A DNA stretch of 64,000 nt, from assembly GCA_977017645.1 (NCBI GenBank), contig OZ360247.1:15190001-15254000 (forward strand), read 5' to 3'. The stretch is from Torpedo marmorata (taxonomy: Eukaryota). The notes under the pieces were generated by a model. That model was given only the letters and a program-made list of their open reading frames with translations, had not been told where the DNA came from and did no database searches. The position numbers were made by a program, and so were the translations under genes. This document shows positions 18,801 to 61,375 of this stretch, piece after piece. Each line of letters starts with the position of its first letter. Position 1 is the first letter of the stretch.

Positions 18801-21800
18801 AAGGCAGTTGTAGTTTAGAAATAGAAAAGAATTGTTACAATTGTGCAGGGTTCTTGTGAAACCGCACCTGGAAATCTGTGTACAGTTTTGATTCCATAAT
18901 TAAGAAAGGATATATCAGCTTTGGACACAGTCCAGAAAAGATTCACGAGGCTAATTCCTGGAATAAGAGGGCTGGCCTTTTAGAAACAGCTGAAATGTTA
19001 GATCTGCATTCTTTGGAGTTTAGATGAATTATGGATGATGGTATTGAAGTGTATAAAATCTGAAGGGATTATGACAGAATAGATGGTGAGATGATTCTAT
19101 TCATGGGAGGGCCTTGAACAAAGGTACGTAGAAATCAATTCTTCCATAGGATGATGAATTTCTTGAATTCTCTACCCTGGAGGACTGTCGAGTCGAGACA
19201 TTGGAGGTATTTAAAAAGGAGGAGAATACCATTTCAAAAATCAAGGAATTGTGGACTATAAGCACAGAAGAGGAGTTGAGGCTTAGGGTAGATCAATTAT
19301 TATATTGAGCGGAGGAACAGGGGCAAGGTCTCCTACTGCTGCTCCTAATTACTGTTCTCCATGATTTCTTTATTTTCAGATGTTTTATCTGTTCTGAAGA
19401 CAGTGACTATATGTAACTTTTTTCATGGGGATACAGCTGTACATTTCCGTAGACCATCGAGTGATGAGAAGGGGGGAGTCGGACTTCCAAGTAACTGCGA
19501 TGCATTTTTTTGCTACGGACAGAGCAACTTTTACAAATTGAATTTGGAATTTAGATAATCTGTTGCTTATGTCCATGAGGTTTCCTAAAAGATACAACTC
19601 CGGGTCTAGTGGAAAGGCTACTCCCGTAATCCAAGTTAGTACGTTAGCTAAATCATGCCAAAGGGGCCTTACCTTTGCACATGACCAGGTGGAGTGTAAA
19701 AAGGATCCAATTTCTATCCCACACCTGAAACACATTTCTGATATTTCTGGTTTTGACTTGTGTAATTTTTGTGGTGTGAGATACAATTGGTGTAGGAAAT
19801 TATATTGAACCAGTCTATATTTGGCATTAATGACTGCTGTCATGCTGTCTAAACACCAGTCAGCATCGTTCGTGAATTGTTATGCCCAAGTCCGACTCCC
19901 ACCTCTCCCTCGATCTTTGTAGGCCCGGCTTAGGGCTTTCGCTTTGGAGTACAAAACAACCAGTAATCCATCTTGATGTGAATCTTGACCTTCAATGAAA
20001 TATAAATAATTGATCATGGACCTGACAGTCCAGGGTAGAGCAGCAGGCTGCTGTCAAGAATTTCCATCCTATTTGCTGAGCTGGGTTTAGCATCCATACT
20101 TGGGCTCCAGCTGACGTTATCTGATCTTTGCATTTGCGAGTGAGTTACTTGTCTTTAATGGACTAACTTGTATCTGTGCTTGTATTTGTATATTTTGTTA
20201 TTGGTGAAGTTAAATTGGAGGGTTATAATCTCTGGATAACTTAAATGTAGAGTCCAAAATGTGTATTTTGGTGTTGAAATTTGCTTGTCACCAAATCTCT
20301 CTGTATAGAAGATTTTCAGTTGCCATGGTAGAATGCAGTATTGGATCAATATTGAAGTTAGAGTGAGAATACACATTACAAGGTTCATCACAACCTACAG
20401 ACTGTTAGCTCCAAAGGGTGAAATACACAAAAGTGTTGGTGAAACCCAGCAGGTCATGCAGCATCCATAGGAAGTAAAAGGCAATCAACATGTCAGGACT
20501 GAGTTTCCTGAGGAAGGGCCCAGGCCAAAATGTTGATTGCCTTTCACTTCCTGTGGATGCTGCGTGGCCTGCTGAGTTTCTCCAGCACTTTCGTGTATTG
20601 CACTAGACCAAGCATTTGCAGATTTTCTTGTTTAACTCCATTTGACGCCAAAGAGTCTTGTGCTAAGAAACTGAGCCAAAACATACTTGTGAACTGCTCA
20701 TACAAATTAACATTTCCCATCAATTTCTTTTCAAGTTTATCTATCTTAAAATTGTCTAAGATTTAAGGTCATACCTTTCTGGCAAATTCCCATTATTTCT
20801 CTTTATATTTCCTAGCATGTGGTTACTGTTATGATTCTGATGCATAGGAATGTGATTTAGTCTGCCCTCTGAAATAGTCCAGCAAACTTTTAATTGGACA
20901 CAATCGTGGGCAATAAATACCAGTCTACTCTTTGACCCTTAAATCTCACAAACAAAACATAAAATTATTATTTATCTATTGAGATGCAATCCTTGTTTAA
21001 TGAAATGTATCACTATTCTTTTCTCCAGAGAAACGGCCCTCTTGATTGATCCAAAAAATTCCTGCTCATCATCAAAACAGTGGGTTGCTTTGGTAGTCGG
21101 CCATGAGCTTGCTCATCAGTGGTTTGGAAACCTCGTCACTATGGTAATATTCTAATCTTTGGAAAATAGAGTGGATTTGTGAAAACTCAGCTGCTTCTGC
21201 TTTAAACGAGAGATTTGTCTCTCGGCAAAGGCTTGCTTGCATCTTAGAATTTCAGTGTACCAGTGAATCATTGCTTTTAAAATCGGTCGTGATTCAATCT
21301 TAAAAGATAATGGGAGTTGGAGAAGGTGGATTAAATAAGCCACTTCAGCTCTCAATAGATTTTGATGCTTGATTCTAACAATGTTTATTTACTTTGTATT
21401 CAGCAGTATTTGCATTCCTATTTGTATATAAAATGCGATTTTTTTTTTGGGGGGGTTTTTTGCTGTAACATTTTAACTAAATTTGGAACTGGAACTGTTT
21501 AATTTAAATAATTTGCTCCACCCAGGTATGGACCAGAGTAGGTAAGCAGTTGTCCTTACGAATTTTCTTCAGGTAGATATTGTAATTTGTGATTTATTTT
21601 CTTGGGGTATATATTACAATTTGTAGCTGTACCTGAACTCCTGAGATCAACTATTTCCAAAGCTGCCATGTTAATGTCAGCCAGGATCATACAAGGGAAA
21701 CTGTGTTTTGGTGTATATTTTTTGACAACTTTTGATCAATCTGCACATATGGAACAAGAACACATTTATCATTTACGTGATGGTGAGCTGGTCCTTGATA

Positions 21801-24800
21801 GGGAACTCTTCTGTTTGCATTCTAACCAGCATACTTTCTACATGTGAACCGGTAGATCTTATTTGTTGACTCAAAGAACAAAATCTCTGCCAGTATGTGA
21901 ATGTAAACAGGAGTTAAACACGAACGTCTGCAGACACTGTGATTGAAGTAAAAACACAATGCTGGAGAAACTCAGCAGGTCAAACAGTGTACTTTATAAA
22001 GCAAAGATACAGATATATAACCAACGTTTTGGGCTTGAGACCTTCATCAAGGTATGAGCAAAATGTAGGCAGCCACCCGAACAAAATGGTGGGAGGGGCA
22101 ACTGTTCGAGCGACTGCCTACATTTTGCTCATACCTTGATATAGGGCTCAAGCCTGAAACTTTGGTTATGTATCTTTATCTTTGTTATATAAAGTACACT
22201 GTTTGACCTGCTGATTTTCTGCAGCTTTGTGTTTTTACAATCCATGTGAGCACCAGTTATGCACTTTGGATTGAAGTGCTGGCTGTTTGGGTTACAGCTG
22301 AGCCAATTTCCCTGTCAGGTCACATCTGGAAAGAGAAACCGAATTTGTTTCAGGTTAAATACCCTTCGTCAATTCGCATTGCCTTGTCAGTGCAATTTTT
22401 TTAGGTCAAGCAAAAGTAGCCTCGTTGGGATGATTGCTGAGTTAGCAATCTAATCAGATTGTTCTGCAATATTTATAGTGGTGTAAATTTACTATACAAA
22501 TCCAAGCACTGGTATGTATGGGAGTTGGTCATGGACATGAATACAATGTACAAATGCACCAAAATCCTTCCTTGCTGCAGCCACACTTGTTTAAGATTCA
22601 CCAACAGTTGCATAACTTGTCACAATATGGCATGAGACAGAAAAAGAAATAATAAATATAAAAGGATAGATGAATATTCACAATATAAAAGGGTAGATAA
22701 ATAGGATGTTTACAGCAATCTATTGAAGTTTCCTTTGAAGGCTTGTCAGCATGTTTATTGTAGCCAAGTAGTCTACTGCCACTATCCAGCTTGATTGCAC
22801 TTCATAGTCAAGTGGCTAGTGGCCAGCATGAAAATCCCATTGTTACACTGGTGTTTGTCCCCTCTGAAAATGCATGGAAAAGCAAACATGGGGTACTGTA
22901 GAATAACTTGATATGTATGTAAAATCGAAACAAGGAGAGATTATATCCGAATTAAATAGATTCGAGCTGCATCCTGATTGGCAATGATGAAACTGACCTT
23001 TTGATTTACTTCCTTTTTCTTTTATATAAAAAAAACCTAACATTTCCTTCAAAACTGAGAAACTATTAATGATTTTTAGGGAAGTCCATTTTTAATCCAT
23101 CGTAGGAACACTATTTAACTGCAGTCAGAGTCTAGTCAACATGTTTGTGGGTTGATTAATTCAGCTTCATTAAAATTTCAACCCAAAACGCAGCTTCTCC
23201 TGATTTGTATATTTAAAAAATCTTGTACTGATAATACCTGGTCTTTATTCATGCTTGATCATTTGTAATTTAGGGTGCCTTTGTAGGTTTAAGCTATAGC
23301 TACACAAATCTCCAGCTCAGTTTTTTGTAGGGCCAGCACTGGGTGGGCTGATGGTATAAGAACAGAAGATGTCTATTGGATCCACTGCAATTCGCCTTCT
23401 GTCACAATCGCTCTACAGCAGATGCAATATCACTGGCTCTCCACTCAGCTCTGGATCACCAAGACTATAGCAACACATCTGGATCCTTGACTTCCTCATC
23501 GGAAGACCACCGACAGTACGAATCGGAAACATCGTCTCTTCCTCACTAATGACCAACACAGGTGAACCTCAAAGATACATGCTTAGCCCACTGCTCTACT
23601 TGCTTTACATCCATGACTGTGTGGTGAGGCACAATTCAAATGCCGTCTACAAATTTGCCGATAATACTACTGTCATTGGTAGAATCACAGACGGCAATGA
23701 GTTGTACAGGAGGGAGATAACTCAGCTAGTCAAGAGGTGTCACAACAACAACTTTGCACTCAGCGTTGGCAAAACCAAGAAGTTAATTGTGGACTTCAGG
23801 AAGGGGAAATCAGGAGAATACGAACCAGACCTCATCGAGGGGTCAGCAGTGGAATGGGTTAAGAACTTCAAGTTCCTGGGTGTCAACATCTCTGAAGATC
23901 TGTCCTGGGGTCTCCATGTTGATGCAATCATAAAGAAGGCTCACCAACGGTTGTACTTCGTGAGGAGTTTGTGGAAATTTGGTATGTCACCAAAGACTCT
24001 TCCAAATTTCTACAAGTGTACCATGGAGAGCATTCTAACTGGTTGCATCACTTTCTGGTATGGAGGTGCCAATGCACAGGACAAGAAAAGACTACAGAGA
24101 GTTGTAAACTAGGCCAGTGCCATCACGGGCATCAGTCACCACTCCAGTGAGGACATTTACAAGAGGCGATGTCTTAAGAAAGCAGCCTCTATCCTCAAGG
24201 ACCCCCACCACCCAGGCCATGCCCTCTTCACACTGCTACCATCAGGAAGGAGGTACAGGAGCCTGAAGACAAGCGCCCAGCGACACAAGGACAGCTTCTT
24301 CCCCTCGGCCATCAGATTTCTGAATGGATAATGAACCATGGACACTACTTCACTTTCTCTTACTTTGCATTAATTAATTTATTTTTTTGTAATTTATAGC
24401 AATATTTGCACTATAATGCTGCCACAAAACAATGAATTTTGTGACATGTTCATGACAATAAATTCTGACTCTGAATATCATGGTCTATTGAGCCCCTCCA
24501 GCATGATCATTCAACAAGACTATGATTTTCGACCTTGAACACCTTTTTTCGGTATTTTCCCCATTTCCTTCAATTCATTTAACACCCACAAATCTATCAT
24601 TTGAGTAGAGTTAATGACAAAGCCTCCACAGCCCTCTGGTTTAAAGAATTCCAATGATTTGCCACCATTTCAGTGAAGAAATGTCATCTCATTTCATTTC
24701 TAAACAGTTGATCCATTGTCCATGGCTTCAAGTATTGCAAGGTTAAGGCCATTTGTAAATTGGAAGAACACTACATTTCATCTCAGCAGTCTCCAACCAG

Positions 24801-36800: not shown

Positions 36801-39800
36801 TGGGAGAGGAAAGTCTAAAATAGAAACATCTTGAGAACAGATGTGGCATAGATGGAAAAATTGAGAAAAAGTAGTGGCATCCTTGCAGGAGGGAAGAGGT
36901 GTAGTCAAATTGGCTGTTGGAGTCTGTGGGTTTATAGTTAACATTGGTGGTTAGTTTTACAGCATGGAAACAACCCTTGGGTCCAGCTTTCCATGTTGAC
37001 TAAGTTCTCTCCCCAACCTAGAGCCATTTGTCTGCATTCAGCCCATATCCCTCTAAACCAGTGGTTTTCAAACTTTTTCTTTCCACTCACATACCACTTT
37101 AAGTAATTCCTATGCCATAGGTGCTCTGTGATTAGTAAGGGATTACTTAAGGTGGTATGTGAGTGGGAAAAAAAAGGTTGAGAACCGCTGCTCTAGACCC
37201 AATTGTTACTGAAATATTTTGCTTGAGAAAAATTGTCATTGGACCATTTCCTTTGGAGTTATGAAACCGTGCACATAACGAGTCAATTAGGTACGATTAA
37301 AACAGTGGTTTTCAAACTTTTTCTTTCCACTCACATACCACCTTAAGTAATCCCTTACTAATCACAGAGCACTTCTGGCATAGGGGTTACTTAAGGTGGT
37401 ATGTGAGTGGAAAGAAAAAGTTTGAAAACCACTGCTCTAAACCTTTCCTATCCATGTACCTGTCTAACTGACTCTTAAGTTACAATTGTACTCGCCTCTA
37501 TCACTACCTCTGGCAGCTTGTTCCAGATGCCCACCAGCCTCTGGGGGAGGGGGGGGGGATCGTCCCTCAGGTCCCTTTTTAAATCTTTCTCCTCTTGCCT
37601 TAACTCTGTCTTGTAGTTTTAGATTCCCAAACCCTGGGGTGAAAGACTACTTCGTGATTTTATAAACTTCTATAAGCAAGCAATCCGGCAGGAAGCAGAT
37701 TCGAAAGTAATTTTCAAAAGAATTGGATACAGTTTTCCAGGGTGGAGCTGGGCTGCAGCAACAGCTGAGAAGTTGGACAAATTGGCTTTTTAAACGACAT
37801 AGCACAGACTCAAGGAATCAATCAGCCTGCTGCTGCTGTATTGTTCTGTGGTTTTATGCAATTGTAAGCTTAAATTTTCAAGTTCTTTTGAAAATGTTTG
37901 AATAATGTTGATGCTAGTTCTTAAGAGGCAACACCTTCTGAAATGAAAAGGTTTTCTGATTGGTAGAGTGTTTTCTTAAGGTTCTAGGACACCTGTTTAG
38001 TTCCTGGTGGAATAGCTGGACTGCAGTGAAAAGGAGCTGTTCTGGAATGCAAGTGGCTTCCCCCTTAACTGGCATCATGGTGATGAAGGGTAGGGAGCCA
38101 AATTGCTCATCTTTTTAGGTTGCACAACCAATGTTTTAAAGGTGTGGGTTCAGAGTTCTATGAAAATGGTTGGAAAATACTTGATGTATTTTGTCTGCAG
38201 AACAAATTTGAGATGGATCTAACCAATTGTTGGCCCAATTAATATTGGTTGCCAGACGTAGGTTCAACAAAACTGCAAGGAATTTTACATTATAGTGACT
38301 AAATTAAAGAGACAATTTAACTATATAGTGGCAAAGTATATGCACTAGTAGAATCAGCTTTGTTGTGTGACATCAGATGCTTTAGAATTCCAAATATCCA
38401 TTCCACCAAAGGGTAAACATGAGTATCTTGAGATGGCAGAATTGAAAAATTAATTTTTTATTAGATTTGTCATCCCTTTGGGGTCTCAGAATGTGGCTGA
38501 TGATTGGCCTGCAGACTCTACCATGGGTGGTATTGAAGGCACTTGACAGATGGGGATGTGAATTGTATGGGAAATGGTGCTTTCCTACTGCCATATATGT
38601 TGACTTTCTGTGTGCTGTAGTAATTACATTTTGAATAATTGTTGGCCAGGGATTCCCACAAATTCTTAGGAATGTCACGCTTTTTCAGGAAGGCTTTGAC
38701 AACATCCCTGTGTACATTTAGTAATTTTTTTGCAACAATGCCTGGAGTAGAATGTCTGTGTCAGGGGGGAGTTGTTGGGCAAGTAATTGAAGCCTCTGTT
38801 GGCATTGGAGACTGCGGAAGTTGATTTGTACGATGATGGTGGATGTGGAGGATTTTGCACAGACAGCCTTGACACTTTAGTATTCTGAGGTACATGCTAT
38901 ACATGCAGACAGGAGCAAGGATTTCTGCTACCCAGTCGACCACGAGTTTAGTGCTGAATTTCCTTGCTAGTGTTTTGTAAAAGCTTGGCATAATTTCCTT
39001 TCTGTTGTGCAATCTTACTAAAACCTTGAACACCAGTGTTTTTATTTATAACAGCTTCTTTAACTTGCCTAATGTTCAGAGATACGAGAACATACTTTCC
39101 ATAAAACTCTCAGATCCCATACATCCTTTCACAATTTTGTATTGCCTCATACAAATGTACACCCGAATTAGGATTAGGAGTAAGCCACGTGGCCTCTCAA
39201 GTTCCTCTGCCATTCAATTATACTCCAGACGTGGTCTCAGCAGTGCCTATTATCCCTGCTACATTTGTTACCCTTTACTTCCTCTGGATGCTGCGTGACC
39301 TGCTGAGTTTCTTCAGCATATTTGTGTATTGCACCCACTTGTCTGATTGTGATAGACATGAGATTTTTTTTTAAATCTCCTCTTACTGATTTGGGCAATT
39401 TTAACCAGTTCCCTGGTGAGATCTTCCAGAATGAAAAAATATAAATGAATTAGATTAAGTTTGTGTTTTAGCATCAAGAAAACTGGGATTGTAACAGCTG
39501 TTTGACAGATTTGTTTGAAGTTCAGTTGCAACTAAATGGAATGGATTAGGTTTCACTGACCCTGCCGCCTCCAACCCAGGAAAAACGACCACTGTGCCTT
39601 CATTAGATAGTGCTGCATTTCTCAGCATCTCTTATGAGGATGTTTACCCACCACCAATTTGTCTAAATGAAAGGGAATTGGGTTAAATGCATAGTTTGTG
39701 TTCCATGGTTGAATAAGGTAATTTATTTTTTCCCATTGTTTAAAATAAGAGAGGGGGGAGGGGGAACTGGAAAATAGTTTCAGTAAAACAGCGTTGATTT

Positions 39801-42800
39801 TGTTCAAAGGCAGAGCAGACCCGAGGACTCAAATGGCCAACTCCTAGTCCTATTTTATTTCCACAAGACATATAGATATTAGAAGATAACAGCTCATCTC
39901 TCCATTCTCCATTGAGCTCTCTCTCCGACTTCCATACTTCTATTAGCAACTATGTGGTTGGACATTTGTTTTGAATTAAGAATTTCAGGAATTTGAAATG
40001 GGCACATCAATGGCCCTTTGTGAAATAATTTATCTTTTTTTCTCTACAGAGGATCTTTGGCACTGTTTGGAACAAGCCAGTGGAAAGCCTATTAATGATG
40101 TAATGAGCTCATGGACAAAACAGATGGGATTTCCTCTCATTTGTGTTGAAGAAAAGCAGGTAGGTGACTTAGTTCTATCTATATATCTATGCCTTTTGAG
40201 AGACCAAGAAAGAGTGAAATTGTACAAACTTGTATTGCAGGTAAACTTGCAACACTATGACAGGTAAAATAATGGATGAGGTCCTGGAATTTGAACTTGG
40301 GAAGCTAAAAGGGAAATTAAAAAGGATTGAAGGTTGTAATCTCTGAATTACCTCCAGTGTGCTAGCAAATAAAGGGATATAGTAGATGAATACATGGCTG
40401 GAGTGATGGTGTAGAAGGGAGGGCTTAAAGCTCTGGATCACTGGGACCATTTCTGGGGTAGGTGGTCCAATAAGAACACAAGAAATGGGAGCAGCCTGCT
40501 CCGCCATCAAATAAGATCATGGATATCGCCTCAGCTCTATCTCCCTGTCTTTTCCCCATGACCCTTAATTCCCCTATCTTCCAAAAACCTATCTGTCTTA
40601 AATGTATTTAATAAGTTAGCCTCCACTGCTTCCTTGGGCAGAGAATTCCACAGATTCGCTACTCTGTCATAAATCTACTCTCCTGAATGTTGAGGCTATG
40701 TCCCCTAGTTCTAGTCTCACTTACCAGTGGAAACCACTTTCATGCCTATATCTTATCTATCACTTTCATAATTTTGTATGTTTCTAGAAGATCCCCTCTT
40801 ATTCTTCTGAATTCCAGTGATTATAGTCCTAGGTGACAATCCCTCCTCAAAGGCTAACCCACTCATCTCTGGAAGGAACTTGATAAACCTCCTCTGCACC
40901 AGACTGATTCCAGAGATAAAGTCCTTGTGGGGTTCTGCTTTACTAGTGCTGTTGAAAGTCTAAACTAATTTGCCTGGGTAATGGGACACAGAAGAGAAGT
41001 ACAATAGGATGTGAGGAACCAACAAATATAGAAGGAAAATTAATCCTCTGGACATGCAGATTGGATTGCATCTATTTTTAACACAAAGGTGTTGATCAGA
41101 AAAGCTGATAACTGAGGGCAGTGATTAAAATGGGAATATGACATTGTTGCTGTAATGGAGAGGGTTGAAAGATAGATAGGGCAGTGAATGTTCCAGGATA
41201 TAGAAGCTTCATTGGAGCATATAAAAGAGGTGACTGCATTATAGTATTAATCACAGACTACATTTCTGCAGTAAGAAGGAAGATATTCCAGAAGGTTCTT
41301 CAAATAAGGCCTGATGGATGAAGCTTAGCAACAAAAAGGGGTGATCATTTTGCCAGAGAGGTGCTCTATAGGCCTCCACGCTATCATCAGGAAATAGGGG
41401 ATTAGATATGAGAGACCTAAGAGATGACCTGTGCATGATGCTGGAGACCAGGTCTTAAATAAATATTAAATAAATAAATATACTGTATACCTTGATGAAG
41501 GGCTCAAGCCCAAAACGTCGGTTATGTATTTTTATCTTTGCTATATAAAGGACACTGTTTGACCTGCTGAGTTTCTCCAGCTTTGTGTTTTTACTTCAAC
41601 CATGGTGTCTACAGATTTTCGTGTTTTACTTAAATAAATACTTCTCATTAGTATTCGCTGTAGAAAAGGGCATTGTGGTTGGAGAACAGGATAGGCTGGG
41701 TTTGTTTTTGTCTGATTCCATAGGAGGTAAAGATATATAACCAATGTTTTGGGCCTGAGCCCTTCTTCAAGGGATGCCTACCCTGAAGAAGTTTTCCTCC
41801 TCTCTTCGAACTGCTGAGTTCCTCCAGCACTTCTTTATATTTACTACAATCACAGCGTCTGCAGAGTGTTCAACAGTACTTCATGAAAAGCAAACCCAGC
41901 GTATCCTATGATCCAGACAATGTCCTGGTGCCTGTTCTCTGCACTCCCTCCACTGTAATTACATCCTTCATGTGGTGTCGCGACTAGAACTCCTCCAATA
42001 TTCCCAGTACGGTGTCACTAGTGCAATACACAAAGGTGCTGGTGAAATTCAGCAGGGGGTCACGCAGCATCTACATGAAGTAAACGGTAACCAATGTTTC
42101 GGGCCTGAGCCCTTCGTCAAGGTAGGAGCAAAAAACAGGCAAGTGCCTGAATAAAAAGGTAGAGGAGAAGGGGGTAGGAGTGGAGGGAGGAAGGAGGAGC
42201 ACAGCCTAATGGGTAAAAGATGGATACAGGTGGGAGGGTAAAAGAGAAAAAAGCAGAGAAGTGATGGGGGAGGGGGCAGCTCTGATAGGAGAGGGAAGTG
42301 GGTGGGGAGCTGGAAACAGGGTTAGGGAAAGAGAGAGACTCGGGGGAGGGGTTTAACGGAAATTGGAGAAGAGATGCTGCATGACCTGCTAAGTTTCTCC
42401 AGCACATTTGAGGCGGCACGGTTAGCGTAGCGATTAGCGCAATGCTGTTACAGCGCCTGCGATCGGGGCCGGGGTTTGAATCCCCCAATATCTGTAAGGA
42501 ATTTGTACGTTCTCCCTGTGTCTGCGTGGGTTTCCTCCAGGAGTTCCAGTTTCCTCCCACCCTTCAAAACGTACTGGGTGTTGTAGGTCATTTGGGTGTA
42601 ATTAGGCGGCACGGGCTTGTGGGCCGAAAGAGCCTGTTACCGTGCTGTATGTCTAAATTTAAATTTGTTTGTGTATTGCACTCGACCCCAGCATCTGTGG
42701 ACTTTCTTGTTTAACTCCACAGTCTCACTAGTGTTTTGCAGAGTTGCAATGTAATGTCACAGCTTTAATATTTCTATACCCTAACTTATGAAAAAGACCA

Positions 42801-45800: not shown

Positions 45801-48800
45801 CTTAAATTTATTATTTTCAAAACTTCACAAAAAAAATCAAGTACAGTATTCTTGGACTAACGATTTTGAACAGGAGAGAGATTGTCATCACCTCCAAGTG
45901 GTTAGGAATGAGGATTGAAACCCAGCTTCAAGGTATCTGTCATGGGAGGCAAAATTTGAATTTTTGTCAATGTTCTTATATGAAGCAGAAGAAAAAGGTC
46001 CTGCTGACACATTTGGCAATCTTTTATGTGAATATAATTAGAGGTAAATTTTACATCAAATGGAGTTGACCATATCATATTTTACTCTTTCATTTCTAGC
46101 ATGCTAATGAATCCAGAGTGATAGACACCCCTCTCCCAGTGAAAAGATAGAGGAGATAAACCACAATAGGCTGATAACAGTAATCACCAACATTAAAATG
46201 CAATGGATAGTTGTTGCACTGGGGTTTAATGTCCAGCAGCCAAACAGCACAATGCATGTGTAAAAACTGCATTGGATTAAGCTAAGTGGATCGCTGGTTG
46301 ACATTTGTACTCAAGACTCAATCATGGAAAATGATCACTTGTGTGAGATGTAAAAACACAATGCTGGAGAAATTCAGCAGGTCAAATAGCATACTTTATA
46401 TAGCAAAGATAAATATAGATAAGCAATGATTCGGGCCTGAGCACTTCATCAAGGTGTGTGAGATGAAAAGGTCTCCTGCTCTTAGAATTGTAGCTCAGAA
46501 GATGGGTATTCTGAAGAGGTAAGGAAATGAATGATGGGGAAGTACCTGAAGATGTTGGGTTTGTTGTTTTTTTGTTTTCCTTTAGGAAACAAGCTGAGAG
46601 ATTTCCATTTTCCTTTGAGATTTTTTTACAAGAATTCCCTTGTTTCACCTTCATGGTGACATCAAGTTTATGAATTGTCTGCTTTCCATGTTTATAAAAT
46701 TTTCATAAATTTGTGTACTGTATTTCCAAACTTGAGAGTGAAGAAGGTTCAAAAAGATCTTTAAACTTTAATTTTCTTCTTTCACGAGTATCTTGTGACT
46801 CTTGTCAGTCTGGAAATTATTTTGCATGTGTTAATCTGAGGCACTCTCTGCTGTTTTGCTTTCCCTTCTCAAGCTTCTCCACACCTTTGATTTGGTATTT
46901 GCCCAAACACTAACCAAATATGGGGATTCATGCAATCGAATGAGAATCTGAAATCTATCGTGTCTGGTTAATAGAGCATTCTAACCATGCTTACCCAAAT
47001 TGCATTTTAGTTTATCAACTTGATCTACTTGCATTTGGTGACATTTGTCTCCTTGGAACCTAATGGTAACCATGTTCATCAGTAACTCCAATTAAACATA
47101 AATTATAAGATCATAAGACAAAGGAGCAGAAATAGGCTATCCAGCCCATCAAGTCTGCCCCACCATTCAATCATGAGCTGATCCATTTTCCCACTCAGCC
47201 CAACTGCCCGGCCTTCTCCCCATAACCTTTGATGCCCTGGCTAATCAAGAAACCATGTTATTTTCCCCCAACAATTATTGGAATGCAAAACATTGTCAGC
47301 ACACCAGATTTGTGGCAATGGATATTTGAGTGAGCTTAATTTAATAAGTAGGAGATCTTTTGGAATGGCAAATTCTCCCACAATAATGTCATGAAGGTTT
47401 CAATGGGAAATATGCTGAGGAATGAATTTGAGGATGAAGACCTTGGGTCCATAACTTGTGTTTTCAAATGAAACAAGGTTGATTATTATTGGTATTTTGA
47501 GGGGGGGGGGAGGAGAGAAAGGAGGAGAGTTGGCAAACAAGATACAGATCAGCAGAGGAACAGAGACAGATACTTAAAGAACTGGTTTATAATGCTCAGC
47601 AAGTGGGATTCCATGAGAAGGGGGGATAACGTGCAGTTAACAAACAAGGTGAAGGGTAATGTTATATTGAAGAGGAGGGTATACAAAGTAGCAAGGGCTA
47701 GTGGTAAGAGTGGGAAATTTATTGGAGTCTGCATCGGAAGTTCAAAACGTTTATGGGAGAAGATGAATTTTGAAACAAAACTTGCATGCAGTATAAAAAG
47801 CGCACAGTAAAAGTCCCTATGGATATATAAATAAGAGCATGGCTAAGATAAATGTGAGGCCTATAGTCAAGTCACCTTTATTTGTCGTTCATTACCATAT
47901 ACACAGTAAGACGAGATAGTGTTTCTCCAGGACCATGGGCAGATGTACATAAATATCATAATACAATAAAAAAACTATAACATGCTAATACACATATATA
48001 TCTAGGAATTGAGGAGCCTGATGGCTTGGGGGAAAAAACTGTTGCACAGCCTGGATGTACGAACCCGAGTGCTTCGGTACCTCCTTCCAGATGGCAAAGG
48101 GGAAAACAGTTTACCAAAGGGGTGTGAGAAGTCCTTCACAATGTTTTTAGCCTTCCTCATGCATCGTGTGTTGAAGATGTCTGTCATGGTGGGGAGAGAG
48201 ACTCCAATAATTTTTTCCGCTGACCTCACTATCCTCTGCAGGGTCTTTCGGTCCGAGATGGTACAGTTTACAAACCAAGCGGTGATGCAATTGCTCAGAA
48301 TACTCTCAATGCATCCCCTGTAGAATGTAGTAAGGATAGGGGGTGGGAGATGAACTTTCCTCAGCCTTCGCAGGAAGTAAAGACGCTGCTGGGCTTTCTT
48401 GACTATGGAACTGGTGTTGAGGGACCAGCTGAGACTCTCCGCCAAGTGCACTCCAAGAAACTTGGTACTCATTACGACCTCAACGGTAGAGCCGTCCATG
48501 GTCAAAGGAGAATGATCCCCCCCCGGGCCCTTCTGAAGTCGACAACCAACTCTTTTGTTTACGTTCAGCTGCAGGTTGTTGTTTCCGCACCATTCCATTA
48601 GCGACTGCACCTCATCTCTGTATGCTGACTCATCGTTCTTACTGATAAGGCCCACCACGGTTGTATCATCAGCGAACTTTATGATGTGATTCGAGCTGTG
48701 TTTTGCTGCACAGTCATGAGTCAGCAGGGTGAACAGCAATGGACTAAGCACACAGCCCTGGGGAGCACCCGTGCTCAATGTAATGGCCTTAGAAGTGCTG

Positions 48801-54800: not shown

Positions 54801-57679
54801 AGATGTAGTTTGCATTGCTTAGTTTCCAAAAGTACCAGCCTGTTTAGGTTTGCACATTTGTGAACAATCCACTAAATGTAAATCATCAATTAAATCTTCA
54901 GTACACCAGGGCTGAAGAAACTCAGCAGGTCATGCAACATCTATGAGAAACAAAAGGCAGTCGGTGTTTCGGGCATGAAGGCAAATGCAGTGTTGGCATT
55001 CATATTCAGGGGAATAGGATACAAGAGCAGGGATGTGATTTTGAGGCACTGATGAGGCCTCACTTGGAGTACGAGGTACAGTTTTGGGCTCCTTATTTAA
55101 GAAAGGATTCAATTCAATTTCAATTTATTGTCATATAATATGACACGGTTTTATTACTATGAAATTTCTTTTTGCCTGCTGCAAGGCAGACAGTTTCGCC
55201 ACCGGCAGAAATTGCCTAAGCGCCTCTAACATTCCTTCCAGTCAGAGAAAGGGAAGCAAAAGAGAGTCCTCCCAGAGTCACCAGTGTCCGTAGATTCACC
55301 TCCAGCGCTTCCGCAGCCACTGAGTCCCACAGATAGGCTGGCATTGGAGAGGGTTTGGAGAAGATTCACAAAAATGATTCCTGGAATGAGGGATTAGTAT
55401 GAGGAACGTTTGACACCTCTTGGCCTGTACTCTTTGGAGTTCAGAAGAACGAGGGGGGACCTCATTGAAGCATTTCAAATGTTGAAAGGCCTGGACAGAG
55501 TAGATGTGTCACAGTTATTTCCCATGGTAGGGGAGTCAAGGATAAGAGGGCACAACTTCAGGATTGAAGGGCGCCCATTTAAAACAGAGATATTTCTTTA
55601 GCAAGAGAGTGGTGAGTCTCTGGAATTTGCTACCACGGGCAGCTGTGGAGGCCAGGTCGTGGTGTGTATTTAAGGAAGAGATTGATTGGTATCTGAATAG
55701 TCAGGATATCAATGGTTATGGGAAGAAGGCGGGAGTGGGGCTGAGTGGGAGAATAATGGATAAGCTCATGATGGAATGGCAGAGTGGACTCGATGGGCCG
55801 AATAGCCTATTTCTACTCTTTTTTAGACATACAGCATGGTAACAGGCCCTTTTGGCCCACAAGCCCGTGCTGCCCAATTACACCCAATTAACCTACAACC
55901 CTGGTGTATGTTTTGAAGGGTGGGAGTAAACGGGAGTGCCCAGAGGAAACCCTCCCAGACATGGGGAGAACCTACAAACTCCTTACAGATAGTGCCATTC
56001 GAACCCTGGTCGCTGGCGCTGTAACAGCATTGTGTTAACCGCTATGCTAACTGCCGCCCTAATAAACCTATCTTAATGTCTTGTGAGCTCAACTGCCTGT
56101 TGCTTTCTATGGATGCTGCATGACATGCTGAGTTTCTCCAGCACTTTTGTATGATGCACTCGACCCCAGCAACTGCAGATTTCTTATTTACACAATTAAT
56201 TTAACCTGACAGTCTATGATATTTTTACTTATAAATTAGAGGATGAAGGAAACAGATGGCTCAGCGCATTGCTGTACTAATGTTGGTTTTCATTTTGAGA
56301 TTCTGTTAAATCTATAATATGTAGCGATACAGTTCTAATGAACCGATCAATTCTGTTGAAATGCAGTGGGATGTTTTTACAAATTGTCGTAGTCTAATCT
56401 TTGGACTAACTTTTAGGGTCAGAATTTCCTATTCCACATTCTCACCGTTAATTGAGGCAGCTGTGAATAATGAGAATTCCTAGTAGAGAACGTTATTTTC
56501 TGCTTTTCCTTGTGAATGACTTTATGAAAGGTGGGCAGAATGAGTGGTTATGTTCCTGTTACAACAAGAATGCTGGTGGTCAGATTCTGATGCTTTTAAC
56601 GTTGAAGCTCTGAGCCCACCACTGGACAATGAAAGATATTGATTTGGTGCTGTTTTCAACTGGTCTTTCTGGGCAGTGCCTCAGTTATACACACACCAGT
56701 TCTTCCAAAACAGCAGTTCATGGATTAAAAACTCAGTAGAACCTCTCCCTTCATGACATTTCAAAGTTTGGAGCTGAAGTATCAACACAAGGTGGTGACC
56801 ATTGCATTGCACCAGAGTATCAGGTCCAATAGTTCTGTGGCAGCTTTCCATGCAATGTTAACGGGTTGACATTTTCCACAACACAAGAAAATAACGAGCA
56901 GGGATAGGCCATTAGGCCCTTCAAGCCTGTCCCATCATTTCGATGCTGGCTTCAGGTCCACTTCTGTGCCATTTCTCCATACCCTTTCATTACTCCATGT
57001 CTCAAATAATTATCCATCTCCACTTTAAATACTTCTAATGGTCCAGCTTCCACTTCCCACCGGGGACCGAGTTCCAGAGGTTCACCACCCTCTGCAAGAA
57101 GTTGTTCGACTTGCTTCAGTTTTCAATGAGAAGCCTCTTATTTGGGGTTATGTCTACTTGTGTGAGACTCTACCACTGATGTAAACACTGAAAGAGAGTT
57201 CAACAGTATATATGTCTGCTATACTGACTGTGGCCATTAATGTAAACCAACCTAAAATAAAAACAGTGCTAGAAGTGCACAGCAGGTCATGCAACGTTTG
57301 TGGTGAGAGAAAAAATATATATTTGAGAATTGCAACATTTCTCACCATGAATATTTTTAGCATTTTCTGCTTTTTTGCTTAAGATTACCAAGATCAACAG
57401 TACTTTTCTTTAAAAATCCATCTTCCGATCAGGTTTAATTTCAAAGAATAATGAAAATCGATGTTTGGGTAAATTAAATACGTTCGTTAAAGCTCTATAA
57501 GGATGCATGTTAAACATTCCTCTGTACTTTTGTTTAATCTTCAGTTGAATCCTGGAACAGTGGGCTTCTGTCGAATTCAGTACAGTCCGACAATGCTCGA
57601 GAGTTTATTATCCAGTGTCCGGAACCTTGCACTTCCTCCTGCAGACCGACTAGGGCTTCAAAATGATTTGTTTTCACTG
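773..57679 (+). CDS. NPEPPS: Puromycin-sensitive aminopeptidase (M1 zinc metallopeptidase), internal 12 exons: join(773..880,12993..13193,15311..15407,16115..16148,21029..21143,28316..28480,33224..33328,36494..36554,40050..40159,45321..45384,52231..52370,57545..57679); partial at both ends
   Basis: All exons are bounded by AG/GT with compatible phases; total 1335 nt = 445 codons with no stop. Motifs: [53 protein letters not shown] (HExxH-x18-E), [29 protein letters not shown]. These match NPEPPS as I recall it. Confidence 0.97.
3331..4586. mobile_element. Tc2/pogo-like (Tc1-mariner superfamily) non-autonomous MITE
   Basis: 27-bp TIRs CCGTATATTTCGGC(A/G)TATAAGTCGACC with 1 mismatch; TA TSD at 3329-30 and 4587-88; several subterminal copies of GGCGTATAAGTCGACC at both ends. 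Confidence 0.9.
3635..4310. repeat. 27-bp GC-rich minisatellite, about 25 units (CTCGTTCTCCCGAGCAGGAGCGGGGAG), inside the MITE
   Basis: Tandem units counted directly; they give the 9-aa SSPLL(L/P)GRT periodicity on the minus strand. Confidence 0.95.
5046..5296 (+). mobile_element. tRNA-derived V-SINE (HE1-like)
   Basis: A box TAGCGTAGCGG, B-box-like GGTTTGAATCC, V-domain GGAGTTTGCACGTTCTCC...GGTTTCCTCCCAC, CR1-like tail GGGCCGAAAGGGCCTGTT, AT-rich end. Confidence 0.88.
6307..7165. mobile_element. Second Tc2/pogo-like MITE with a CpG-rich interior
   Basis: TIRs CTGTATTTGACAGCATATAGGACCC vs CTATATTTGACAGCATATAAGACCC (2 mismatches); TA on the left, TG on the right; subterminal GCGTATAAGAC like the 3331 element. 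Confidence 0.8.
7307..7918. mobile_element. Tigger/pogo-like MITE with a V-SINE fragment (about 7521-7593, minus) inside
   Basis: TA|CAGTAAAATCC...GGGGACTTTGATG|TA; shares gcaccta(c/t)ggg and ggttgcttgaattccggata with the 62393 copy. Confidence 0.7.
8322..8505. mobile_element. piggyBac-like MITE
   Basis: TIR C(G)CTTTGGACTCC / GGAGTCCAAAGGG; TTAA on the right, GTAA on the left. Confidence 0.65.
8700..9150 (-). mobile_element. CR1-type LINE 3' fragment, interrupted by a + strand Rex-type tail fragment (about 8805-8910)
   Basis: gaacagtacaggaacaggcccttc is the reverse complement of the CR1/HER1-type 3' end; the insert ends tattacatgataataaaggaactttgaa. Confidence 0.55.
9315..11950 (+). mobile_element. 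Young 5'-truncated Rex1/Babar-type LINE with an uninterrupted APE endonuclease-reverse transcriptase frame (to 11802)
   Basis: APE motifs TETWL, GGGV, VYIPP, GDFN, LDHCY, SDH; RT motifs [38 protein letters not shown]. 3' UTR has AATAAA and a (TTCTGA)n tail; TSD GTTAGT at 9309-14 and 11951-56. Confidence 0.93.
12080..12307 (+). mobile_element. 3' fragment of a related Rex1-type LINE
   Basis: ttcccttccgccatcagatttctgaac...ttcatgattataaacctgattctga parallels the 3' end of the 9315 element. Confidence 0.75.
12993..13193 (+). CDS. NPEPPS: NPEPPS exon (201 nt): [39 protein letters not shown]...GKFALE
   Basis: Acceptor gttacag, donor GAG|gttgtt; [12 protein letters not shown]1 motif. Confidence 0.95.
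13900..14335 (-). mobile_element. Old Rex1-type LINE 3' fragment
   Basis: Minus-strand peptide [13 protein letters not shown]...[20 protein letters not shown]. Confidence 0.75.
15311..15407 (+). CDS. NPEPPS: NPEPPS exon (97 nt): [32 protein letters not shown](G)
   Basis: Long pyrimidine tract ending ccgttag, donor CAG|gttgtt; [10 protein letters not shown] motif. Absent from the ORF track. Confidence 0.95.
16115..16148 (+). CDS. NPEPPS: NPEPPS exon (34 nt): (G)[10 protein letters not shown](R), GAMEN exopeptidase motif
   Basis: tttttattcacag|GTGCCATGGAAAATTGGGGTCTTGTAACCTACAG|gtattt. Confidence 0.95.
16690..18130 (-). mobile_element. Highly degraded LINE remnants (CR1/L2-like)
   Basis: ccagcatttattgtcaatctgtagtttgcc end motif, also seen near 54090 (ccagcatttattgcccattcctaattg); no long ORF. 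Confidence 0.35.
17342..17596 (+). mobile_element. tRNA-derived V-SINE (HE1-like)
   Basis: Perfect B box GGTTCGAATCC, V-domain and tail as in the 5046 copy. Confidence 0.88.
18760..19360 (+). mobile_element. Degraded CR1 LINE 3' region
   Basis: Encodes the remnant [14 protein letters not shown] and [10 protein letters not shown] typical of the CR1 ORF2 C-terminus. Confidence 0.7.
19385..19950 (-). mobile_element. L1-clade LINE ORF2 C-terminal fragment
   Basis: Peptide [14 protein letters not shown]...[18 protein letters not shown] (CCHC zinc knuckle)...[10 protein letters not shown]. Confidence 0.8.
20422..20640. mobile_element. Palindromic Penelope-end element
   Basis: About 70-bp inverted arms (cagcaggtcatgcagcatccataggaagt / acttcctgtggatgctgcgtggcctgctg) around a degenerate ctgagga-agggcccaggcc-aaaa motif. 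Confidence 0.7.
21029..21143 (+). CDS. NPEPPS: NPEPPS exon (115 nt): [38 protein letters not shown], zinc-binding HExxH
   Basis: Acceptor ttcttttctccag, donor ATG|gtaata; HELAH motif. Confidence 0.97.
21910..22238. mobile_element. Inverted pair of Penelope-like termini (about 135-bp arms, 19-nt spacer)
   Basis: 21948-22083 is a near-perfect reverse complement of 22103-22238; each arm carries a decayed hammerhead-like motif. Confidence 0.8.
23377..24474 (+). mobile_element. Older truncated Rex1-type LINE, same lineage as 9315
   Basis: RT remnant [32 protein letters not shown]; internal deletion and stop; tail gacaataaattctgactctga. Confidence 0.88.
24735..25148 (+). mobile_element. Penelope-like element 3' end (GIY-YIG C-terminus remnant, pyrimidine-rich UTR, terminal motif)
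   Basis: aaattggaagaacac...tttcatctcagcagtctccaaccagat reads [13 protein letters not shown], as in PLE endonuclease C-termini; then a C/T-rich tract, cctgaagga...cctgaaacatc and gatgctgcatgac. Confidence 0.72.
25977..28150 (-). mobile_element. Second Rex1/Babar-type LINE family, 5'-truncated and frameshifted
   Basis: Minus ORFs with [32 protein letters not shown]; 3' end gacaaataaaggtgacttgac shared with the 47865 and 62706 copies. Confidence 0.92.
28316..28480 (+). CDS. NPEPPS: NPEPPS exon (165 nt): [34 protein letters not shown]...SSHPIE
   Basis: Acceptor attgtag, donor GAG|gtaagg; third zinc ligand Glu in LNEGFA. Confidence 0.96.
28505..28740 (-). mobile_element. 5S rRNA-derived SINE (SINE3 type)
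   Basis: Minus strand GTCTGATCTCGGAAGCTAAGCAGG...CTGGTCAGTACTTGGAGGGGAGATCGCCTAGGAACACCAGTTGCTGGAGGTTT matches vertebrate 5S rRNA (box A, IE, box C); followed by a non-5S body and a GACAATAATGGAAC tail. Confidence 0.85.
29154..29973 (+). mobile_element. Solo LTR (Gypsy-like)
   Basis: TGTTA...TAACA termini, 4-bp TSD CCTG (29150-53, 29974-77), AATAAA near the 3' end. Confidence 0.85.
31018..31670 (+). mobile_element. Second solo LTR of the same family (diverged, shorter)
   Basis: Starts TGTTATGGACCATG and ends GTTGCTGGTTTGAGTTGTAACA like the 29154 copy; TSD imperfect. Confidence 0.8.
32140..32910 (+). mobile_element. Degraded CR1 3' fragment containing an internally deleted V-SINE (about 32579-32775)
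   Basis: gggccatatttgcaatattgtgtgcagttc CR1 motif; SINE V-domain and tail present. Confidence 0.65.
33224..33328 (+). CDS. NPEPPS: NPEPPS exon (105 nt): [35 protein letters not shown]
   Basis: Acceptor ttttttaataaag (AAG type), donor GCG|gtaagg; catalytic Tyr in ISYSKG. Confidence 0.95.
33625..34030 (+). mobile_element. Ancient Deu-domain SINE (SacSINE1/AmnSINE-like)
   Basis: aaaacagatgatctagtccttatctcagtgttg...gagcttattgcacacaaattggctgtcatgtttcc resembles the DeuSINE consensus as recalled; related pieces at about 32925-33065 and 62230-62390. Confidence 0.55.
36494..36554 (+). CDS. NPEPPS: NPEPPS exon (61 nt): [20 protein letters not shown](E)
   Basis: Acceptor ctctttacag, donor CAG|gtaagc; phase fits both neighbours. 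Confidence 0.93.
36600..36950 (-). mobile_element. Penelope-like element fragment (RT C-terminal region plus purine-rich tract)
   Basis: Minus strand reads, across frameshifts, [15 protein letters not shown] and [21 protein letters not shown], matching the PLE RT motif YxKPTD...PxSQxLRxxRICS. Confidence 0.75.
36960..37670 (-). mobile_element. CR1/HER1-type LINE 3' fragment hosting the hAT composite
   Basis: cagcatggaaacaaccctt...ccatatccctctaaac|ctttcctatccatgtacctgtc is continuous once the insert is removed. Confidence 0.7.
37059..37434. mobile_element. hAT (Charlie-like) composite MITE: two about 130-bp palindromic units around a 112-bp spacer
   Basis: TIR CAGTGGTTTTCAAAC at both outer ends; perfect 8-bp TSD CTCTAAAC (37051-58, 37435-42); units at 37059-37190 and 37303-37434. 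Confidence 0.92.
40050..40159 (+). CDS. NPEPPS: NPEPPS exon (110 nt): (E)[36 protein letters not shown]
   Basis: Acceptor ttttttctctacag, donor CAG|gtaggt; WTKQMGFP motif. Confidence 0.95.
40290..41460. mobile_element. Mosaic of CR1 LINE fragments in both orientations
   Basis: CR1 5'/EN-like pieces on +; a minus-strand 3' end (ataagaacacaagaaatgggagcag...) at about 40470-40900. Confidence 0.55.
41486..41630 (+). mobile_element. Penelope-end element, sense orientation
   Basis: ataccttgatgaagggctcaagcccaaaacgtcggtt...gacctgctgagtttctccagc; flanked by a taaataaata duplication. Confidence 0.75.
42024..42718 (-). mobile_element. Penelope-like 3' fragment with an inverted terminus, interrupted by a V-SINE (42411-42666, +)
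   Basis: Minus strand has a FSNFR* ORF end, pyrimidine tract and hammerhead-like motif; 15-nt TSD ac(g/a)gt(g/c)tcactagtg at 42009-23 and 42719-33. Confidence 0.78.
42734..45000 (-). mobile_element. Long degraded CR1 LINE with a V-SINE fragment (about 43451-43622, +)
   Basis: CR1-like pieces (gaccctggcacgagggaggcaaca, tccccttcccaattcgggtgc); no intact ORF. Confidence 0.55.
45321..45384 (+). CDS. NPEPPS: NPEPPS exon (64 nt): [21 protein letters not shown](G)
   Basis: Acceptor ttctttttcag, donor GTG|gtaaga; SQKKFCASG motif. Confidence 0.93.
46350..46460 (-). mobile_element. Penelope-end element
   Basis: gtaaaaacacaatgctggagaaattcagcaggtcaaa...ttcgggcctgagcacttcatcaagg; same family as 21910 and 57718. 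Confidence 0.72.
47865..48930 (-). mobile_element. Rex1-type LINE family B, 5'-truncated, inserted in CR1 remnants
   Basis: 294-aa ORF 48002-48886 with [26 protein letters not shown]; 3' UTR nearly identical to the 25977 copy. Confidence 0.92.
49184..49350 (-). mobile_element. Diverged V-SINE
   Basis: gtgggaggaaacaggagcacctggaggaaatccac...gggagaacaagcaaactcc; a similar diverged copy lies at about 50855-51160. Confidence 0.7.
50619..50662 (-). mobile_element. 44-bp extreme 3' end of the young Rex1 family
   Basis: Reverse complement is identical to 11903-11946 (accgaatttcatgacttgttcatgacaataaattctgattctga). Confidence 0.8.
52231..52370 (+). CDS. NPEPPS: NPEPPS exon (140 nt): (G)[17 protein letters not shown]...[10 protein letters not shown]
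   Basis: Acceptor tgtttcccag, donor AAG|gtaggt; WMVPI and QWIK motifs. Confidence 0.94.
54980..55820 (+). mobile_element. CR1 LINE 3' portion, interrupted by a minus-strand non-autonomous retroelement fragment (55108-55331)
   Basis: Peptide [29 protein letters not shown]...[10 protein letters not shown] and [14 protein letters not shown]. Confidence 0.85.
55822..56060 (-). mobile_element. tRNA-derived V-SINE
   Basis: Reverse complement of the 5046/17342 consensus. Confidence 0.85.
56885..57180 (-). mobile_element. CR1 3' fragment
   Basis: aagaaaataacgagcagggataggccattaggcccttcaagcctg end motif; similar pieces at about 1003-1500, 24480-24700 and 47105-47250. Confidence 0.55.
57545..57679 (+). 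CDS. NPEPPS: NPEPPS exon (135 nt): [22 protein letters not shown]...[12 protein letters not shown]
   Basis: Acceptor aatcttcag, donor CTG|gtaagt. Confidence 0.95.
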
Positions 57680-57717
57680 GTAAGTCGGGGGGTGGGGGAT
57701 AATGGATTAATTATTAA

Positions 57718-57875
57718 AGTAAAACACGACAGTCTGCAGACACCGTGATTGAAATAAAAACGATGCTGGAGAAACTCAGCAGGTCAAACAGTGTACTTTA
57801 TGTAGCAAAGATAAAGATTCATAACCAACGTTTCGGGCTTCAGCCCTTCATCAAGGTATGAACAAAATGTGGGCA
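57718..57875 (-). mobile_element. Penelope-end element with the best-preserved hammerhead-like motif (57818-57862)
   Basis: Minus strand: ttcatacc-TTGATGA-a-gggct-ga-agccc-GAAAC-GTT-ggttatgaa. Confidence 0.78.
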
Positions 57876-61120: not shown

Positions 61121-61375
61121 GTTTAAATTTTTTAATTTAGACATTCAACACAGTAACAGGCAATTTCGGCCCACGAGCTCCTGCTGCCCAATTACACCCA
61201 ATTGACCTACACCCCCGGTACTTTTTTGAAGGGTGGGAGGAAACCGGAGCACCCAGTGGAAACCCACGCAGACATGGGGAGAACGTACAAACTCCTTACA
61301 GACAGCGCCAGATTTGACCCCCGGCTACTGGTGCTGTCACAGCGTTGCGCTAACCGCTACGCTAACTGTGCCACC
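61121..61375 (-). mobile_element. tRNA-derived V-SINE within degraded LINE sequence
   Basis: Reverse complement of the 5046 consensus, full length. Confidence 0.87.

What the first reader, a model, noticed from the sequence alone, without database searches (positions are those of the whole stretch)
20422..57875. Family of Penelope-end mini-elements carrying minimal hammerhead-ribozyme-like motifs
Seen: at least 9 copies of (C/T)TGANGA-A-GGGC-loop-GCCC-GAAAC-GT(C/T). The best, minus 57862-57818, has stem I UUCAUA-CC/GG-u-UAUGAA, core UUGAUGA, an extra A, stem II GGGCU/AGCCC, GAAA, a palindromic AACGUU in place of stem III, and a GUU triplet. Other copies: minus 42086-42126, 22020, 41745, 46430; plus 20507, 22131, 25058, 41489. 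Some are attached to PLE ORF ends (24735, 42355). Known: Penelope-like elements carry minimal type I hammerheads thought to act as dimers. Unusual here: U3 instead of C3 with G8 unchanged in most copies, and apparent spread as 150-330-bp units. Inference: a non-autonomous ribozyme-bearing retroelement family with a variant core.
Basis: partly seen in the sequence, partly recalled or inferred. Interest (0 to 1): 0.7.

Follow-up and report, generated by a model that had tools for sequence, protein, structure and literature searches.

The report
Wobble-core hammerhead in Penelope retrotransposon ends
These nine motifs are decayed tail-ends of a very abundant protein-coding Penelope-like jumping gene, not a separate mini-element; its small hammerhead RNA motif inherits a U-G wobble where a C-G pair is normal, while the rest of the core stays unchanged across subfamilies, so it is likely a slow self-cutter kept by selection, though cutting is untested.

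Summary
The nine motifs are real. They are 60-430-bp 3' ends of a 3.9-kb Penelope-like element (RT + GIY-YIG, Neptune-type linker) with the motif in both pseudo-LTRs. Copies share 3' ends and vary from 0 to >1,500 nt upstream, so the 'non-autonomous 150-330-bp unit' is not supported. U3 is the master state: 92,955 exact U3-G8 cores versus 2,011 C3-G8 and 1,784 U3-A8. Stems I and II covary. Older families use C-G, U-G or U-A at 3-8, almost never C-A. Across six U3 subfamilies the other ten core bases never change while flanks differ by up to 31%. The youngest subfamily (7,908 exact copies) adds U2.1 and G10.1-U11.1. Short copies begin at the motif's first bases, not at the cut site, implying uncut templates. 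Only one window copy keeps the full core and palindrome. Minimal PLE hammerheads are published, and a U3-G8 example stands in Cervera and De la Pena's 2014 supplementary alignment (Saccoglossus). This scan has noted the same family repeatedly in this genome and another. Verdict: a modest variant of a known kind, useful as a natural test of whether PLEs need cleavage.

The parts
57719..57875 (-). 3' end of the PLE (subfamily B) with tail; best-preserved motif, U3 at 57854, predicted cut between 57827 and 57826
   Evidence: 92% to another copy, from -20 to +137 relative to position 3
46347..46454 (-). Short PLE end starting at the motif's 5' edge; U3, G10.2 and A15.1 mutated
42024..42371 (-). 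PLE end of older subfamily E with 3' UTR and last ORF codons; U3, C7, palindrome broken
42369..42410 (+). Inverted tail fragment joined to the 5' side of the 42024-42371 copy
41717..41775 (-). Inverted motif fragment (U3, G12 mutated) fused to the ORF start
41764..41865 (+). ORF-start fragment of the element (MPTLKK, unit positions 179-225) followed by a tail fragment
41487..41631 (+). PLE end with tail starting at the motif's 5' edge; U3, G12 mutated
   Evidence: 96% to L010
24717..25146 (+). Old PLE end with endonuclease C-terminal remnant, 3' UTR and a C3 motif with A9 mutated
21910..22092 (-). PLE end with tail, left arm of a head-to-head inverted pair; U3, G12 mutated
   Evidence: (I3)
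22103..22237 (+). PLE end, right arm of the inverted pair; U3, G8 and A9 mutated
   Evidence: (I3)
20424..20503 (-). Inverted partial end lacking the 5' half of the motif
   Evidence: (I16)
20507..20638 (+). Old PLE end starting at the motif; C3, G12 lost
39255..39334 (+). Tail-only fragment of the same family, starting inside the motif's 3' half
54911..54978 (-). Tail fragment with the 3' half of the motif
56094..56190 (+). Tail-only fragment

Best explanation
The window's motifs are decayed 3' ends of a 3.9-kb protein-coding Penelope-like retrotransposon whose pseudo-LTR carries a minimal type I hammerhead with an inherited U3-G8 wobble, and that hammerhead is likely a slow, dimer- and protein-dependent self-cutter still under selection in the active masters. 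Shown: element anatomy, U3 as master state, covariation, constancy of the other core bases, where copies start and end. Inferred: a transcript runs motif-tail-ORF-3' UTR-motif-tail; the encoded endonuclease nicks DNA and the RT primes at one of two sites about 105 and 140 nt past position 3; synthesis stops early, giving nested ends; priming in the 5' repeat would run off at the RNA's start and give the 105-145-bp stubs that begin at the motif. Templates were mostly uncut. Two motifs would pair through ACGU to form helix III; the wobble would keep cutting rare or late. Genomic stubs are inert.
For: Full units: L041 (motifs 3,889 bp apart around RT and GIY-YIG frames) and L267 (3,848 bp, youngest subfamily, ATG 180 nt after the motif, one frameshift); 111 full-length RT-endonuclease relatives at E<=1e-30. 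30 of 30 loci share 3' ends while upstream sharing ranges from about 10 to 1,500 nt. U3-G8 92,955, C3-G8 2,011, U3-A8 1,784 exact cores; 49 of 52 core-aligned random copies have U3. 56-row alignment: 5 of 8 pairs change on both sides, 0 of 500 shuffles reach the score, slid controls far lower; position 3-8 C-G 23, U-G 22, U-A 10, other 1. First 100 of 220 old stem-II U-A cores, tallied by hand: C-G 14, U-G 50, U-A 35, C-A 1. Six U3 subfamily majorities differ at 0 of 10 other core sites, flanks 2-31%, while N7 takes U/A/C and N17 C/U; 61 of 62 copies reaching past -30 keep the motif, so no motif-less subfamily is hidden. 14 of 74 tail-anchored copies start at -11..+3, none at +23..+32 around the cut (p 0.0006-0.003 against upstream). 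In the anole PLE the hammerhead needs protein, its mutants still insert, and uncut RNA is the main template (PMC11167929).
Against: No cleavage or expression data. C3 is part of the consensus core, and single 3-8 mismatches (C3G, G8C) abolish activity in PMC11167929; that C3U slows cleavage strongly is recalled, the papers were not held. The lineage has added U2.1 and then U11.1 (7,908 copies), which looks like erosion. Monomers fold into an inactive rod and the active dimer is 5-21 kcal/mol above the tandem minimum in 10 examples, C3 forms included. Pairwise constancy tests are individually weak (P 0.03-0.2; the summed estimate of 0.002-0.007 rests on a rough tree length). Alignment A1 rows were mostly chosen by core patterns, are related, and stem I is only 71% paired. 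Constancy cannot separate catalysis from another use of the fold.
Confidence: 0.58

Rival explanations
1. The fold is kept for a non-catalytic job (protein binding, transcription start or RT stop) and no longer cuts; wobble changes are tolerated because only the shape matters.
For: Copies start at the motif's edge and not at the cut; successive C-to-U changes at 3, 2.1 and 11.1 all give wobble pairs, and A1.1 restores a pair with U2.1 in 41 or so of the first 100 youngest copies; PLE insertion does not need cleavage in vitro; Naiads thrive without hammerheads (PMC8557442 passages).
Against: The constant positions are exactly the catalytic ones and the variable ones (N7, H17, loop) are those that hammerheads leave free; C-A at 3-8 is avoided.
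Confidence: 0.22
2. The ribozyme died at C3U and the motif is a neutral relic carried along by a successful element.
For: Youngest masters carry three departures from consensus; 8 of 9 window copies are damaged.
Against: U3-G8 spans subfamilies whose flanks differ by up to 31% with no other core change, even G12 in a CpG; it also dominates matching contigs in public runs of organisms A, B, C and E; stems changed on both sides within U3 families.
Confidence: 0.13
3. One reading: a non-autonomous 150-330-bp ribozyme mini-element (retrozyme-like) that spreads as a unit.
For: Many copies are 105-145 bp and start at one place; a few short tandem arrays exist elsewhere in the genome.
Against: Continuous 5' truncation into the ORF; short copies match the coding subfamilies at 92-99% with no private changes seen; no tandem arrangement in the window.
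Confidence: 0.05

Closest known systems
Minimal hammerheads (min-HHR) in pLTRs of metazoan Penelope-like elements (Cervera and De la Pena 2014, PMC4209133; first 20,000 characters and supplement part 2 read)
   Same: Type I layout, extra base between 9 and 10.1, palindromic 15.2-16.2, no stem III, place in the pLTR, many solo truncated copies. Supplementary Fig. S3 lists a PLE-linked Saccoglossus motif with UUGAAGA (U3-G8), and the text describes U3-A8 in Schistosoma.
   Different: Here U3-G8 is the dominant state of over 90,000 exact copies and many subfamilies; the youngest also loses the G10.1-C11.1 pair to a wobble. The parts I read do not discuss U3-G8 or test it.
Poseidon-Ac of Anolis (Frangieh et al. 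2024, PMC11167929; first two of four parts read)
   Same: Tandem pLTR-ORF layout, two 3' ends 35-40 nt apart (tail), uncut RNA as template.
   Different: Canonical C3-G8 core, ORF starts inside the hammerhead; here the ATG lies 180 nt downstream and the protein has a Neptune-type linker.
Neptune clade EN+ PLEs (Craig et al. 2021, PMC8557442; passages read)
   Same: RT plus C-terminal GIY-YIG, C-x4-C-x2-C linker, partial tandems, inverted 5'-truncated partners, optional tail.
   Different: No tree with named reference elements was built; Nematis shares the linker.
Non-LTR retrozymes (Li et al., bioRxiv 10.64898/2026.07.22.740005; parts 1-3 of 5 read)
   Same: Type I hammerhead derived from PLE ends.
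   Different: Defined as tandem units each with a hammerhead; the window's copies are solo or inverted truncations of a coding element.

Membership tests
EN+ Penelope-like element | Single ORF with RT and C-terminal GIY-YIG | tested here: met
   Pfam hits are below cut-off (RVT_1 E 0.004, GIY-YIG E 0.0007) but 111 relatives of 806-1547 aa, many with PF00078 and some with PF01541, cover the RT-EN part; 1,012-codon open frame in L197
EN+ Penelope-like element | Pseudo-LTRs from tandem or partial-tandem insertion | tested here: met
   L041, L042, L267
EN+ Penelope-like element | 5' truncation, inverted partners, optional 30-40-bp tail | tested here: met
Neptune clade | CX2-5CxxC linker between RT and EN | tested here: met
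   C-x4-C-x2-C in the L197 and L218 proteins; definition
Neptune clade | Phylogenetic placement with reference Neptune RTs | not tested
   No named reference sequences were held
Minimal type I hammerhead (min-HHR) | C3 of the consensus core CUGANGA | tested here: not met
   U3 in masters; filed as a variant, which the 2014 alignment itself includes once
Minimal type I hammerhead (min-HHR) | U4 G5 A6 G8 A9, GAA, A15.1-U16.1, H17 | tested here: met
   Constant in six subfamily majorities
Minimal type I hammerhead (min-HHR) | Covarying stems I and II, 3-8 pair | tested here: met
   with the caveats on row choice and relatedness
Minimal type I hammerhead (min-HHR) | Extra base after A9; palindromic 15.2-16.2; G10.1-C11.1 | tested here: met
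   Met in five of six majorities; the youngest has G10.1-U11.1
Minimal type I hammerhead (min-HHR) | Match to an Rfam hammerhead model | tested here: inconclusive
   No hit at E<=10; the motif lacks stem III
Minimal type I hammerhead (min-HHR) | Self-cleavage as a dimer | not testable with these tools
   Needs an in vitro assay
Non-LTR retrozyme / non-autonomous mini-element | Tandem or fixed-length non-coding units | tested here: not met
   Lengths 60-430 bp in the window and up to full length elsewhere
Non-LTR retrozyme / non-autonomous mini-element | Circular RNA | not testable with these tools
   Only contigs, none on record as RNA

The most novel reading that the evidence does not exclude
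A vertebrate retrotransposon lineage has been turning its hammerhead down step by step (C3U, then C2.1U, then C11.1U, each a wobble, one later repaired to U-A) and became more successful as it did, keeping the hammerhead fold as the structure that marks the RNA's 5' end and stops the RT, so that the PLE 'ribozyme' is being converted to a non-cutting structural element in real time.
Probability: 0.2. Interest if true: 0.65.

Novelty: new variant of a known kind. Interest (0 to 1): 0.36.

Why it matters
Why Penelope-like elements keep hammerheads is open: they cut poorly, mutants still insert in vitro, and some clades lack them. This genome holds a dated series of natural alleles (C3-G8, U3-A8, U3-G8, then U2.1, U11.1, A1.1) in one element family, including a recently active one, so cleavage rate can be set against evolutionary success with a handful of 45-nt RNAs. 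The window's copies themselves are ordinary dead repeats.

Tried and rejected
Rfam scan: no hammerhead hit. No RNA holder listed among public runs; laying contigs of 8 run-slots (7 runs) showed the family in other coded organisms but cannot show starts, ends or splicing, and no convincing splice joint appeared. GUU as CpG decay: my first reading, rejected for subfamily B, whose unselected copies read GUU-GG without the matching GUC-AG product. Register shift making C3 with an inserted U: rejected, since both C2.1/C2.2 have G partners and older families show U3 after a different stem I. A U3-A8 compensation in the main lineage: 1.9% of U3-G8, a sporadic level; U3-A8 belongs to older families. 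Near-identical young copies as passengers of another repeat: rejected, flanks and 5' ends differ. In one search about 17 rows starting at +63..+68 were T-rich false matches; the count was redone with 16 chosen references. Folding energies did not separate C3 from U3 forms (crashed). A genome-wide listing of upstream bases anchored on the tail was not obtained, so the start-site counts rest on 133 held copies. Lunse et al. 2017 and three mutagenesis papers were not held; supplement file 1 of PMC4209133 and the bioRxiv supplements were not seen and may mention U3-G8 or shark elements. Paper searches for U3-G8/C3U and for shark PLE hammerheads found no treatment; the C3U and G8A 'hits' were only the core string.
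Full report
Observation. A profile built from 60 held copies found 9 in the window and 57 in 910 kb taken at round coordinates, with 0 in reversed DNA; that rate would give roughly 390,000 copies in the 6.2-Gb genome (G000), the window being about twice as dense. Seven window copies have U3, two C3. Only the copy at 57854 keeps the other ten core bases and the ACGU palindrome. Rfam gave no hammerhead hit. That the host is a cartilaginous fish is my recollection from its repeats, not a call result.

What the copies are. Thirty loci around an exact 32-mer share 3' ends about 105 and 140-150 nt downstream, while upstream sharing runs from about 10 to 1,500 nt. L041 holds two motifs 3,889 bp apart around RT and GIY-YIG frames; L267 shows the same for the youngest subfamily, with the ATG 180 nt after the first motif and one frameshift. 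The protein has 111 long relatives at E<=1e-30 and a C-x4-C-x2-C linker, the mark of Neptune and Nematis elements. Inverted head-to-head partners, as at 21910-22237 and 20424-20638, and the optional tail are standard PLE features. Window copies measure 60-430 bp; two include the ORF end. They are truncated ends of a coding element.

Is U3 ancestral? Yes. Exact counts: 4,926 U3 versus 49 C3 for one 32-mer; 92,955 U3-G8, 2,011 C3-G8, 1,784 U3-A8 for a general core. In random DNA 46 of 52 aligned cores are U3-G8, 3 U3-A8, 3 C3-G8. Contigs at least 85% alike from runs of coded organisms A, B, C and E show no other letter at position 3 above 10%; the likeness filter favours this result. Small C3 subfamilies exist.

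Is the fold selected? On 56 rows, 5 of 8 pairs change on both sides, no shuffle of 500 reaches the observed score, and slid controls are far lower; stem I is 71% paired, stem II 98%; position 3-8 reads C-G 23, U-G 22, U-A 10, other 1. Most rows were chosen by core patterns and are related, so this is supportive, not a probability. In old families with a U-A fourth pair in stem II, the first 100 of 220 matches, tallied by hand, gave C-G 14, U-G 50, U-A 35, C-A 1. Using only copies not chosen by a pattern (63 assigned of 87), six U3 subfamily majorities differ at none of ten other core sites, while flanks differ 2-31% and N7 and N17 vary; C and E rest on 3 and 4 copies. Of 62 copies reaching past -30, 61 keep the motif.

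The trend in time. A tree of 74 long copies built from sequence outside the motif is a ladder from older families through B (C2.1) to A (U2.1) to a youngest group with end branches of 0.002-0.003 (midpoint root). That group, 7,908 exact copies, 97-99.8% alike over shared spans in most pairs, adds A7 and G10.1-U11.1, and part of it has A1.1, which restores a Watson-Crick pair with U2.1. Every master-level change is at a free position or leaves a wobble or standard pair. The direction by which U-G first arose (from C-G or U-A) is not resolved.

Templates. Among 74 unselected tail-anchored copies at least 85% alike to a reference (of 133), 14 start at -11..+3, 8 at -49..-12, 9 at +4..+22 and none at +23..+32; the cut would be at +28 (p 0.0006, or 0.003 with inverted pairs collapsed). 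All keep the tail behind the cut site. So templates were mostly uncut, as found for the anole element, whose hammerhead cuts only with protein and is dispensable for insertion in vitro. The lead on start sites came from earlier AI notes after I had seen such junctions; the count is mine.

Mechanism. Most likely a slow, dimer- and protein-dependent hammerhead under selection in masters (0.58). A non-cutting structural role (0.22), a dead relic (0.13) and a separate mini-element (0.05) are the rivals. Monomers fold as an inactive rod and energies do not distinguish alleles. Nothing here shows cleavage or expression.

Novelty. Minimal PLE hammerheads and U3-A8 are in print. A U3-G8 PLE motif from Saccoglossus is in the 2014 supplementary alignment. 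Searches found no paper treating U3-G8; Lunse et al. 2017 could not be read. The scan has 47 notes on Penelope hammerheads in this genome, several on this family. Interest 0.36.

Noticed in passing
window 41764-41810; L041 3070-3130; L267: The ORF start (MPTLKK) contains a second hammerhead-like half core, CUGAAGA-A-G, in a hairpin over the AUG; no convincing stem II or GAAA follows in the 6 real examples seen.
   Followed up: partly
G000:C25:171643333-171643599; L222 5673-5720: Short tandem arrays of the motif: C3 cores at a 48-bp period and a 47-bp duplication; retrozyme-like.
   Followed up: no
L208, L209 (G000:C2:8478000-8499499), L210: Near-identical canonical C3 motifs repeated 2.4-5.9 kb apart with no long PLE frame found between them.
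   Followed up: partly
window 28628-28749 (-): 5S rRNA-derived sequence, 41.1 bits, above the Rfam cut-off; likely a 5S-headed SINE or pseudogene.
   Followed up: no
window 9217-11802 (+), 23471-24112 (+): LINE with an 861-aa open frame (endonuclease remnant, RT) and a second, 83% alike fragment.
   Followed up: no
window 25976-27523, 47864-48946, 62710-63832 (-): Three copies of another RT-bearing LINE, 81-97% alike.
   Followed up: no
window 3511-4458: GC-rich 27-bp minisatellite.
   Followed up: no
window 37054-37439: Nested inverted repeats (142-nt arms, 90%), MITE-like.
   Followed up: no
window 36827-36957 (-): Isolated remnant of a PLE RT-thumb region without a motif.
   Followed up: partly
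window 5058-5293, 17351-17595, 32605-32786, 42431-42679, 43456-43633, 49242-49354, 55822-56058, 61130-61375: Another abundant SINE-like family; recalled as a shark-type SINE, not tested.
   Followed up: no
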